Of a DNA stretch of 8,625 nt, positions 2,034-5,100 are shown one piece after another; position 1 is the stretch's first letter, and every line of letters begins with the position of its first letter. The stretch lies in the IMG/VR virus record IMGVR_UViG_2529293076_000018; one strand, given 5' to 3'. A program made the position numbers and the translations under genes. Source of the stretch: a virus. Lineage: Duplodnaviria; Heunggongvirae; Uroviricota; Caudoviricetes. The notes under the pieces were generated by a model. The model searched no databases. It saw nothing but the letters and a program-made list of their open reading frames with translations, and was not told the DNA's origin.

Positions 2034-2140
2034 GGCATAAACAGATTCAGACATCAGACAGGAGAGGGGGACAGAGTGGGTAAAGGGGCGGCAAGGGGCA
2101 CACGCCGGTAGAGGCAAAGGACAATCTTAAGTCCACGCAG

Positions 2141-5100
2141 ATGATGAGCGTGATTGACGCCATTGGTGAAGGGCCGATTGAAGGTCCGGTGAAGGGGCTG
2201 CAGAGTATCCTGGTGAACAAAACCCCGCTGACGGACACGGACGGTAATCCTGTGATACACGGTGTGACAGCGGTCTGGCGCGCCGGGGAGCAGGAGCAGA
2301 CACCACCTGAAGGCTTTGAGTCCTCCGGGGCGGAAACCGCACTGGGCGTGGAAGTGACGAAGGCAAAGCCGGTGACGCGCACCATTACGTCCGCGAACAT
2401 TGACCGCCTGCGGGTCACCTTCGGGGTGCAGTCACTGTTGGAGACCACCTCAAAGGGCGACCGTAATCCCTCATCTGTCCGACTGCTGATTCAGTTGCAG
2501 CGTAACGGTAACTGGGTGACGGAAAAGGATGTCACCATTAACGGCAAGACCACCTCACAGTTCCTCGCTTCGGTGATTCTGGATAATCTGCCTCCCCGTC
2601 CCTTTAACATCCGGATGGTCCGGGAGACGGCGGACAGCACCACGGACCAGCTGCAGAACAGAACGCTGTGGTCGTCATACACCGAAATCATCGATGTGAA
2701 ACAGTGCTACCCGAACACGGCGATTGTGGGGCTGCAGGTGGATGCGGAGCAGTTTGGCGGTCAGCAGATGACGGTGAACTACCATATCCGCGGTCGCATC
2801 ATCCAGGTACCGTCTAACTATGACCCGGAAAAACGCACGTACAGCGGCATCTGGGACGGCAGCCTGAAACCGGCATACAGCAACAACCCTGCCTGGTGCC
2901 TGTGGGACATGCTGACCCACCCGCGCTACGGAATGGGAAAACGCCTGGGGGCGGCGGATGTGGACAAGTGGGCGCTGTATGCCATTGCGCAGTACTGCGA
3001 CCAGATGGTCCCTGATGGTTTCGGGGGCACAGAGCCGCGGATGACCTTTAATGCGTACCTGTCACAACAGCGTAAGACGTGGGACGTTCTCAGTGATTTC
3101 TGCTCGGCGATGCGCTGTATGCCGGTATGGAACGGCCAGACGCTGACGTTCGTTCAGGACAGTCCGTCGGATGTGGTGTGGCCGTACACCAACAGTGATG
3201 TGGTGGTGGATGATAACGGCGTGGGGTTTCGCTACAGCTTCAGCGCCCTGAAGGACCGCCACACGGCGGTGGAGGTGAATTACACCGACCCGCAGAACGG
3301 CTGGCAGACCTCCACGGAACTGGTGGAAGACCCGGAAGCCATACTGCGCTACGGGCGCAACCTGCTGAAGATGGATGCGTTCGGCTGTACCAGTCGCGGT
3401 CAGGCCCACCGTGCCGGGCTGTGGGTGATAAAGACCGGACTGCTGGAAACGCAGACGGTGGATTTCACGCTCGGGTCACAGGGGCTGCGTCACACACCCG
3501 GTGACATTATTGAAATCTGTGATAACGACTATGCCGGGACCATGACCGGCGGACGTGTCCTGTCCATCGATGCCGCCAGCCGCACCCTGACACTGGACCG
3601 TGAGGTGACCCTGCCGGAGACCGGTGCCGCCACGGTGAACCTGATTAACGGCAGCGGTAAGCCGGTGAGCGTGGCCATCACTGCACACCCCGCGCCGGAC
3701 CGGATACAGGTCAGCACCCTGCCGGATGGCGTGGAGACATACGGTGTGTGGGGGCTCTCCCTGCCGTCACTGCGTCGTCGCCTGTTCCGCTGTGTCTCCA
3801 TCCGGGAAAACACGGACGGCACCTTTGCCATCACGGCAGTGCAGCACGTACCGGAAAAAGAAGCCATCGTGGATAACGGGGCGCACTTTGACGGCGACCA
3901 GAGCGGCACCCTGAACAGCGTCATCCCTCCGGCAGTGCAGCACCTGACGGTGGAGGTGAGTGCAGCTGACAGCCAGTATCTGGCGCAGGCGAAATGGGAC
4001 ACGCCGCGGGTGGTGAAGGGCGTGCGCTTCAGTCTGCGCCTGACCAGTGGAAGCGGTCAGGACAGCCGTCTGGTGACCACCGCCATCACTGCGGATACAG
4101 AGCATCGTTTCAGTGGTCTGCCGCTCGGGGAATACACCCTGACAGTCAGGGCAATTAACAGTTATGGCCAGCAGGGGGAACCGGCCATCACCACCTTCCG
4201 GATTAACGCGCCAGCAAAACCCGCCACCATTGAACTGACGCCGGGGTATTTTCAGATAACGGCGGTACCGGTGCTGGCGGTGTATGACCCGACGGTGCAG
4301 TTTGAGTTCTGGTTTTCGGAAAAACGCATCACGAACACGGCACAGGTGGAAAAATCTGCCCGTTATCTGGGGAGCGGCAGTCAGTGGACTGTCCAGGGAA
4401 GCCGGATTAAGCCGGGGACGGATTTCTGGTTTTACGTGCGCAGCGTCAACCTGGTGGGGAAATCTGCGTTTGTGGAAGTCAGCGGGCAGCCCAGCAATGA
4501 TGGTGAAGGGTATCTGGAATTTTTCCGGGAAAAAATAGGAAAACTGCATCTGGCTCAGGGGCTATGGGAGCTGATAGACAACAGCCAGCTTGCGGATGAG
4601 ATGGCGGAGATGAAGACCACCATCACGGAAACCCGCAATGAAATCACACAGACGGTCAGTAAAACGCTGGAGAACCAGAGCGCCACTATACAGCAGATAC
4701 AGCGCGTGCAGAAGGACACAAATGATGACCTGGCTGCGCTGTACATGCTGAAGGTTCAAAAAACGAAAGACGGCATTCCCTATGTGGCCGGGATTGGTGC
4801 AGGGATTGAGGATACTGATGGCCAGCCACTGAGCAACATACTGCTGCTGGCTGACCGTATCGCGATGATAAATCCGGAGAGCGGCAACAGCACGCCGTTA
4901 TTTGTGGCGCAGGGGAATCAGCTGTTCATGAACGACGTGTTCCTGAAGCGACTGTTTGCGGTGAGTATCACCTCATCCGGCAATCCCCCGACGTTTTCCC
5001 TGACGCCGGACGGGCGACTGACGGCGAAAAATGCGGATATCAGTGGCAGTGTGAATGCGAACTCAGGGACGCTCAACAACGTCACGATTAATGAGAACTG

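What the first reader, a model, noticed from the sequence alone, without database searches (positions are those of the whole stretch)
2076..2143. The conserved J N-terminus is encoded in two frames; a GTG start with a strong RBS is out of frame with the main ORF
AGGAG (2060-2064) followed by GTG-GGT-AAA-GGG (2076-2087) encodes M-G-K-G, matching the lambda J start. The next conserved residues ([15 protein letters not shown], against lambda [15 protein letters not shown]) are encoded from 2096 in the frame of the main J ORF, which has a stop at 2081-2083 and no start codon until ATG 2141, an ATG with no Shine-Dalgarno sequence. A 1-nt difference in the G4 run 2085-2088 or 2095-2098 would join the two. 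As given, J either starts at 2141 without an RBS, missing about 22 conserved residues, or is untranslatable from its native start.
Basis: seen in the sequence. Interest (0 to 1): 0.45.

Follow-up and report, generated by a model that had tools for sequence, protein, structure and literature searches.

The report
One-base miscount splits prophage J gene
The start of a lambda-like prophage tail-tip gene (J) is out of frame with its body because a run of five G's is written as four, and this is most likely a base-counting error in a 2012 draft assembly, not biology.

Summary
AGGAG and GTG 2076 open a frame that reads [11 protein letters not shown]. The rest of J ([15 protein letters not shown]...) lies in the -1 frame, behind TAA 2081-2083, and its first start codon is ATG 2141.

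The cause is one missing G in the run 2085-2088. Relatives carry GGGGG there. Adding one G restores an uninterrupted 1159-aa J that is 1152/1159 identical to an annotated gpJ.

The G4 form is rare. The exact 90-mer occurs in 4 E. coli complete-genome records, against 386 with the exact G5 91-mer. In IMG/VR it is 1 contig against 61.

The window is an entire 8625-bp contig (AKLY01000014.1) of the draft genome of E. coli O157:H7 TW09109. That project used Illumina alone or with 454. The tail module is present about four times per O157 genome.

The same contig carries six more single-base anomalies that are private or nearly so. Five are run-length changes; together they break K and the tail fibre gene and remove the fibre-C stop codon. 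No slippery site or stimulatory RNA structure is present.

Best reading: a homopolymer or consensus error in a repeat contig (about 0.8). The rival is a genuine pseudogenising deletion (about 0.17). Interest is low.

The parts
2002..2035 (+). Terminator-like hairpin with a T-rich tail in the I-J spacer, upstream of the J ribosome-binding site
   Evidence: 10-bp stem, 7 G-C pairs. It is identical in relatives. Lambda has a comparable hairpin between I and J.
2060..2064 (+). Shine-Dalgarno sequence AGGAG of the native J start
   Evidence: It lies 11 nt upstream of GTG 2076 and is invariant in relatives.
2076..2078 (+). Native GTG start codon of J
   Evidence: PGAP starts gpJ at the equivalent GTG in relatives: L001 at 2737, L003 at 2736, L004 at 2377.
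2076..2111 (+). As written, an 11-codon dead-end frame [11 protein letters not shown] running from the native start
2085..2088 (+). The lesion: a GGGG run that is GGGGG in relatives (or GGTGG in a paralogous allele)
   Evidence: Searches show the run length in relatives.
2081..2083 (+). TAA stop in the frame of the J body, which closes that frame upstream
2087..5554 (+). Body of J (tail tip / host specificity protein) in the -1 frame relative to its start; stop codon at 5552-5554
   Evidence: Pfam families on record for the product are FNIII-A_GpJ, Phage-tail_3, Ig_J, Phage_Tail_Tip and Ig_GpJ_C. The repaired ORF is 1159 aa and 1152/1159 identical to WP_149888716.1. PGAP starts its pseudo-CDS at the equivalent of 2087 in the G4 genomes.
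2141..2143 (+). First in-frame start codon of the J body as written (codon 23 of intact J), with no Shine-Dalgarno sequence
   Evidence: The ab initio gene call on record starts at the next ATG, 2144.
910..910 (+). Companion anomaly: G where all relatives have GG; it frameshifts K (C40 peptidase)
   Evidence: No exact match exists among 11,207 homologous places.
7050..7053 (+). Companion anomaly: AAAA where relatives have AAA; a +1 frameshift in the tail fibre gene
   Evidence: The exact form occurs in only 3 of 606 records.
7261..7264 (+). Companion anomaly: GGGG where relatives have GGGGG; a -1 frameshift in the tail fibre gene
   Evidence: The exact form occurs in only 3 of 700 records.
7771..7813 (+). 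Companion anomalies: TAG to TAC at 7771 (loss of the fibre-C stop), A5 to A4 at 7785-7788, and TT to T at 7813. Together they create a chimeric fibre-C/NleG ORF at 7502-8458.
   Evidence: No record among 5,960 places matches better than 97.8%.

Best explanation
The J gene is an ordinary lambda-type tail-tip gene. Its native start (AGGAG, 11 nt, GTG 2076) and its body are separated by a one-base under-count of a G5 run, written as G4 at 2085-2088. The most likely origin is a consensus or base-calling error in the draft assembly, not a mutation in the bacterium.

The window is a whole 8.6-kb contig of the 2012-13 draft of E. coli O157:H7 TW09109. It represents a prophage tail module that is present in several near-identical copies per genome. 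Reads from paralogous copies are therefore merged, and one paralogue has GGTGG at exactly this site. If 454 reads were used, pyrosequencing also miscounts homopolymers.

In the real phage DNA the gene most probably reads GTG GGT AAA GGG GGC GGC AAG GGG CAC..., which translates as [22 protein letters not shown]..., and encodes a normal 1159-aa J.

Shown: the lesion, its rarity, the origin of the contig, and the co-occurring anomalies. Inferred: that the cause is technical, and that this strain's assembly was the 454/Illumina hybrid type.
For: 1. One added G restores a single 1159-aa ORF that is 1152/1159 identical to RefSeq gpJ WP_149888716.1. The alignment shows G5 in relatives.
2. G4 is rare. 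The exact 90-mer is the best place in 4 E. coli complete-genome records, against 386 for the exact G5 91-mer, out of about 2,900 homologous places. In IMG/VR it is 1 contig against 61.
3. The window is the entire contig AKLY01000014.1 of GCA_000267065.1, which is strain TW09109. That draft has 66 contigs and comes from a project that used Illumina alone (Velvet) or Illumina plus 454 FLX/XLR (Celera) (PMC3593324).
4. The region is multi-copy: the J-start 90-mer has a median of 4 and up to 9 places per genome.
5. No complete genome matches the contig better than 98.7%. Yet 250-nt segments match one or another paralogous prophage almost perfectly, and the best paralogue switches along the contig. 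This is as expected for a merged repeat consensus.
6. The same contig has six more single-base anomalies; five are run-length changes and one is a substitution. Position 910 is absent from 11,207 places. The 7050 form is in 3 of 606 records. The 7261 form is in 3 of 700 records, and these are different genomes each time. The three changes in 7771-7813 are absent from 5,960 places. Only a handful of private substitutions accompany them. Such a high indel-to-substitution ratio is unlike natural divergence.
7. The complete genomes sharing G4 also show other G/C-run under-counts in the same prophage: G6 to G5, G4 to G3, G5 to G4 and C5 to C4. RefSeq marks several of their tail genes as frameshifted.
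8. A paralogous allele has GGTGG at the site, which gives a concrete route to a consensus mis-call.
Against: - No reads or quality values were available, so the technical origin is inferred.
- The paper does not say which strains were hybrid 454/Illumina. I infer it from the contig count (66 against 393-1288).
- Illumina data in a hybrid assembly should normally correct 454 homopolymer errors.
- Two companion anomalies (GG to G, TT to T) and one substitution are not classical pyrosequencing errors. They fit mixed-paralogue consensus better.
- Genuine frameshifts in J do occur in O157 prophages. One example is GGCCGTAC to GGCCTAC at the equivalent of window 3184, shared by 7 of 16 loci.
- The same G4 is seen on at least three allele backgrounds. 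That could equally reflect recurrent real slippage.
Confidence: 0.8

Rival explanations
1. It is a genuine one-base deletion (G5 to G4, replication slippage) in one of the defective lambdoid prophages of strain TW09109. J would then be a pseudogene. Translation from the native RBS ends after 11 codons. At most a little N-terminally truncated J (lacking 22 residues) could arise by re-initiation at ATG 2141, 30 nt past the TAG.
For: - O157:H7 prophages carry real, inherited frameshifts in J. The deletion at the equivalent of window 3184 is shared by 7 of 16 loci from independent closed genomes, and J is split into 391 + 783 aa in L017.
- G4 at this very site recurs in 4 complete-genome records and 1 IMG/VR contig on different allele backgrounds.
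- RefSeq treats those copies as pseudogenes.
Against: - The lesion travels with six other private or near-private single-base anomalies in 8.6 kb. None of them is shared by descent with any of about 700 O157-type complete genomes. This is implausible for a very clonal serotype.
- Indels and private substitutions occur in roughly equal numbers, which is not a natural mutation spectrum.
- The contig is a repeat contig of a draft assembly.
- The G4 frequency here (about 0.1% of places) is the same as for unrelated homopolymer variants at 7050 and 7261. It looks like background assembly noise, not a lineage marker.
Confidence: 0.17
2. It is a recoding or switching device. Either ribosomes that start at GTG 2076 shift by -1 (or +2) into the J body frame, or the G run acts as a phase-variable tract that switches tail-tip production on and off.
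For: The two frames overlap over a G-rich stretch, and a single-base length change toggles the gene. Lambda-type tail modules do use one programmed -1 frameshift elsewhere, at G/GT; this rests on established knowledge and was not tested here.
Against: - There is no X XXY YYZ slippery heptamer. The zero-frame codons are GGT AAA GGG GCG. A -1 slip from GGG 2085-2087 lands on AGG, and a +1 slip within G4 gives the wrong frame.
- The downstream 100 nt fold no better than shuffled sequence, with z = +0.49.
- The two-frame arrangement is not conserved. Relatives have a plain ORF: 386 records against 4, and 61 contigs against 1.
- A tract of 4-5 G is far shorter than known contingency tracts. No G6 or other length classes appeared among the loci examined.
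- The variant frequency equals that of other runs in the region.
Confidence: 0.02

Closest known systems
Bacteriophage lambda gpJ (tip attachment / host specificity protein; PDB 8IYK, 8K35, 8XCG)
   Same: - The gene order is the same: L, K, I, J, lom, tail fibre.
- The product carries the GpJ Pfam families.
- The first 82 residues of the repaired protein align end to end with lambda J residues 1-82, E = 3e-36.
- The N-terminus is [22 protein letters not shown] against lambda's [22 protein letters not shown].
- A hairpin followed by an SD lies in the I-J spacer in both.
   Different: The start codon is GTG, not ATG, and the I-J spacer is longer (about 240 nt). As written in this contig, the first 22 codons are out of frame with the rest.
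Homopolymer-length errors in 454 or long-read draft assemblies, and consensus errors in collapsed repeats
   Same: - The change is a single-base length change in a mononucleotide run.
- It sits in a draft contig of a multi-copy prophage region, in a project that used 454 FLX/XLR for some strains.
- It is accompanied by five other run-length changes and one substitution that are private or nearly private.
- Other assemblies with the same G4 show clusters of G/C-run under-counts nearby.
   Different: There is no read-level proof here. Some companion changes (2-mers, one substitution) are atypical for pure pyrosequencing error and point to mixed-paralogue consensus.
Frameshifted J pseudogenes of defective O157:H7 prophages
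   Same: It is a frameshift in J of a lambdoid prophage of O157:H7, annotated by RefSeq as a pseudogene where it occurs. A genuine example exists at the equivalent of window 3184.
   Different: The genuine example is shared by many independent closed genomes, that is, inherited. The G4 variant is sporadic and co-occurs with other assembly-type lesions.

Membership tests
Lambda gpJ tail tip protein family | Sequence homology to gpJ over the N-terminal hub region and the GpJ domain set | tested here: met
   Residues 1-82 of the repaired protein align with lambda J residues 1-82, E = 3e-36. Pfam FNIII-A_GpJ, Phage-tail_3, Ig_J, Ig_J_second, Phage_Tail_Tip and Ig_GpJ_C are on record for the product.
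Lambda gpJ tail tip protein family | Position in the tail module after L, K and I and before lom and the side tail fibre | tested here: met
   Gene calls and RefSeq annotation of the contig and its relatives.
Lambda gpJ tail tip protein family | Intact reading frame from the native start | tested here: not met
   As written, the start frame stops at 2109-2111. One added G restores 1159 aa.
Programmed -1 ribosomal frameshift site | Slippery heptamer X XXY YYZ at the frame junction | tested here: not met
   The junction reads GGT AAA GGG GCG GCA AGG GGC. No heptamer allows both tRNAs to re-pair in the -1 frame.
Programmed -1 ribosomal frameshift site | Stimulatory downstream RNA structure | tested here: not met
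   Positions 2076-2175 fold at -24.4 kcal/mol against a shuffle mean of -25.8, z = +0.49.
Programmed -1 ribosomal frameshift site | Two-frame arrangement conserved in homologues | tested here: not met
   Homologues have a single ORF with G5: 386 records against 4, and 61 contigs against 1.
Phase-variable homopolymer tract (contingency locus) | Long tract (typically 7 or more) with several length classes at appreciable frequency in populations | tested here: not met
   The tract is 4-5 G. G4 is present in about 0.1% of places, the same as unrelated runs at 7050 and 7261. Only G5, G4 and GGTGG appeared among the 16 loci examined.
Assembly or sequencing artefact (homopolymer miscount in a repeat contig) | Change confined to a mononucleotide run and absent from nearly all homologous sequences | tested here: met
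Assembly or sequencing artefact (homopolymer miscount in a repeat contig) | Source is a draft assembly of a multi-copy region made with an error-prone chemistry | tested here: inconclusive
   The window is a whole contig of the draft AKLY01, and the region is multi-copy. The project used Illumina alone or Illumina plus 454. That TW09109 was a hybrid assembly is inferred only from its 66 contigs.
Assembly or sequencing artefact (homopolymer miscount in a repeat contig) | Co-occurrence of further private run-length changes in the same contig | tested here: met
   Positions 910, 7050, 7261, 7785 and 7813, plus the substitution at 7771.
Assembly or sequencing artefact (homopolymer miscount in a repeat contig) | Read-level evidence: low quality or mixed calls at the site | not testable with these tools
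   No reads or quality values are accessible.

The most novel reading that the evidence does not exclude
The G5 run in codons 4-5 of J could be a genuine slippage hot spot. It would recurrently and reversibly switch off tail-tip production in O157:H7 lambdoid prophages. G4 is seen on at least three allele backgrounds. This would act as a crude on/off switch for prophage infectivity or for prophage-prophage complementation.
Probability: 0.03. Interest if true: 0.3.

Novelty: not a real feature. Interest (0 to 1): 0.05.

Why it matters
It matters mainly as a quality flag. Gene models from this contig should not be taken at face value. These include J starting at ATG 2141/2144, the truncated K, the broken tail fibre and the fibre-C/NleG fusion. 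They should also not enter protein databases as variants. If the deletion were real, it would add only one more defective prophage to the well-known pool of defective lambdoid prophages in O157:H7.

Tried and rejected
- An exact look-up of the 1137-aa product from ATG 2141 found nothing. The look-up from ATG 2144 identified the source contig.
- I looked for the contig in 5,426 complete E. coli genomes and 50,697 phage records. There is no identical copy: the best matches are 98.7% in the genomes and 96.4% over 90% of the query in the phage records.
- I looked for a closed genome or further literature on TW09109. Only the announcement paper turned up.
- Programmed frameshifting was considered and rejected: no slippery site, no structure, no conservation.
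- Phase variation was considered and rejected: the tract is short, and the variant frequency is no higher than at other runs.
- I asked whether the G4 copies in FORC_044 and 86-24 share ancestry with the window. They carry a different J allele and their own indels at 811 and 3184, which the window lacks. G4 therefore arose, or was mis-called, independently.
No relative supports it.

Full report
**Observation**

The region reads AGGAG (2060-2064), then 11 nt, then GTG GGT AAA GGG GCG GCA AGG GGC ACA CGC CGG TAG (2076-2111). The GTG frame translates as [11 protein letters not shown]. The frame of the long ORF has TAA at 2081-2083 and then [34 protein letters not shown].... Its first possible start is ATG 2141, giving ORF 2141-5554 of 1137 aa. 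No purine-rich Shine-Dalgarno block precedes 2141. Lambda J begins [37 protein letters not shown].

**What the lesion is**

I aligned the region with the closest E. coli prophages. Relatives read AAAGGGGGCGGC where the window reads AAAGGGGCGGC, so the run 2085-2088 is one G short. RefSeq starts gpJ in those relatives at the GTG equivalent to window 2076 and annotates an intact protein of about 1159 aa. Inserting one G gives a single 3480-nt ORF. Its product starts [25 protein letters not shown] and is 1152/1159 identical to WP_149888716.1. The first 82 residues align end to end with lambda J in the solved tail-tip structures, E = 3e-36.

**How common it is**

- In 5,426 complete E. coli genomes, the 90-mer around the site has about 2,900 homologous places in about 745 genomes.
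- The exact G4 form is the best place in 4 records: PV15-279, FORC_044 and two derivatives of 86-24.
- The exact G5 91-mer is the best place in 386 records. Most of the rest differ by substitutions.
- In IMG/VR, one contig has the G4 30-mer and 61 have the G5 31-mer.
- RefSeq annotates J in the G4 genomes as a pseudogene missing its N-terminus. Neighbouring tail genes there are also marked as frameshifted.
- Those extra frameshifts are all G or C run under-counts: G6 to G5 at the equivalent of 811, G4 to G3 at 1218, G5 to G4 at 1475, and C5 to C4 at 4985.
- These genomes carry J alleles different from the window's. FORC_044 and 86-24 also have indels at 811 and 3184 that the window lacks. G4 is therefore not a shared lineage marker.

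**Where the window comes from**

An exact-product look-up shows that the window is the whole of contig AKLY01000014.1 (8625 bp) of assembly GCA_000267065.1. AKLY00000000 is the draft genome of E. coli O157:H7 strain TW09109, with 66 contigs (PMC3593324). That project used either Illumina HiSeq with Velvet, or Illumina plus 454 FLX/XLR 3-kb paired ends with Celera. Six strains have 47-71 contigs and the others 393-1288. I therefore infer that TW09109 was a hybrid 454/Illumina assembly, although the paper does not state this per strain.

The contig starts inside L and ends inside an NleG-type effector gene, so both ends lie in repeated prophage sequence. The module is multi-copy, with a median of 4 and up to 9 places per genome. 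No complete genome matches the contig better than 98.7%. Yet individual 250-nt segments match one or another paralogous O157 prophage with 0-2 differences, and the best-matching paralogue switches along the contig. This pattern fits a consensus merged from paralogous copies, although natural mosaicism cannot be excluded.

**Companion anomalies**

Compared with 16 related loci, the contig has further single-base changes:

- G for GG at 910, which frameshifts K.
- AAAA for AAA at 7050 and GGGG for GGGGG at 7261, an opposing pair of frameshifts 211 nt apart in the tail fibre gene.
- TAG to TAC at 7771, which removes the fibre-C stop codon.
- A5 to A4 at 7785 and TT to T at 7813.

The gene calls on record for the contig are correspondingly broken. 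K is truncated, no fibre gene is called on the + strand, and there is a 318-aa chimera carrying Phage_fiber_C and T3SS_NleG.

Against all complete genomes:

| Site | Occurrence of the window's form |
|---|---|
| 910 | 0 of 11,207 places |
| 7050 | 3 of 606 records |
| 7261 | 3 of 700 records, in different genomes |
| 7735-7865 | no match above 97.8% among 5,960 places |

Each variant alone sits at the roughly 0.1% noise level of assemblies. Seven of them in one 8.6-kb contig, with only a handful of isolated private substitutions, points to a contig-specific technical cause. It does not look like natural divergence in a very clonal serotype. At the J site itself, paralogous alleles read GGGGG or GGTGG. 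This gives a concrete way for a mixed-read consensus to collapse to GGGG.

**Rivals**

*A real pseudogenising deletion* cannot be excluded without reads. O157 prophages do carry inherited J frameshifts, such as GGCCGTAC to GGCCTAC at the equivalent of 3184 in 7 of 16 loci, with J split into 391 + 783 aa in L017. That genuine case is shared by many closed genomes, unlike G4. I give this about 0.17.

*Recoding* is very unlikely. There is no X XXY YYZ heptamer at the junction. A +1 slip within G4 gives the wrong frame. The downstream RNA folds no better than shuffles, z = +0.49. Homologues have a plain ORF.

*Phase variation* is unlikely too. The tract is only 4-5 G, and its variant frequency equals that of unrelated runs. 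Recoding and phase variation together get about 0.02.

**Verdict**

The best explanation is a one-base homopolymer or consensus error in a repeat contig of a draft assembly (about 0.8). The underlying gene is an ordinary lambda-type J. Novelty: not a real feature. Interest is low. The practical value is a warning against using the gene models of this contig.

Noticed in passing
window 890-940 (site 910): K (C40 peptidase) is frameshifted by G-for-GG at 910. The K allele otherwise matches L011/L016. The change is absent from all 11,207 homologous places in complete E. coli genomes.
   Followed up: yes
window 7050-7264: The tail fibre gene carries an opposing pair of frameshifts 211 nt apart: A3 to A4 at 7050 and G5 to G4 at 7261. 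It also has a 9-nt in-frame deletion near 7167-7169 in the collagen-like repeat. Each frameshift variant occurs in only 3 complete-genome records, and in different ones.
   Followed up: yes
window 7502-8458 (sites 7771, 7785, 7813): The fibre-C stop codon TAG reads TAC, and two run-length changes follow in the intergenic terminator region. Together they give a 318-aa chimeric ORF with Phage_fiber_C and T3SS_NleG domains. All three changes are private to this contig.
   Followed up: yes
equivalent of window 3184 in L005, L006, L011, L012, L013, L016, L017: A genuine, widely shared J frameshift (GGCCGTACACC or GGCCCTACACC to GGCCTACACC) occurs in one J allele of O157:H7 prophages. J is split into 391 + 783 aa in L017. 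The window does not have it.
   Followed up: partly
window 1836-2075: The I-J spacer is about 240 nt long. It holds a strong terminator-like hairpin (2002-2025 plus a T-rich tail) just upstream of the J RBS, and a 39-aa ORF (1881-2000) is called on record. Lambda also has a hairpin between I and J. Its role (attenuation or mRNA stability) was not examined.
   Followed up: no
window 1-8625: The contig is a patchwork. The best-matching O157 prophage paralogue switches between segments: L004/L013 at 1-500, L011/L016 at 751-1250, L004 at 1251-2000, and L011/L014/L016 at 2751-3000. No complete genome exceeds 98.7% overall.
   Followed up: partly
L002, L005, L006 (PV15-279, FORC_044, 86-24): These RefSeq complete genomes show clusters of G/C homopolymer under-counts in the same prophage tail module, and several tail genes there are marked as frameshifted. 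This suggests unpolished long-read consensus errors in repeated prophage regions.
   Followed up: partly
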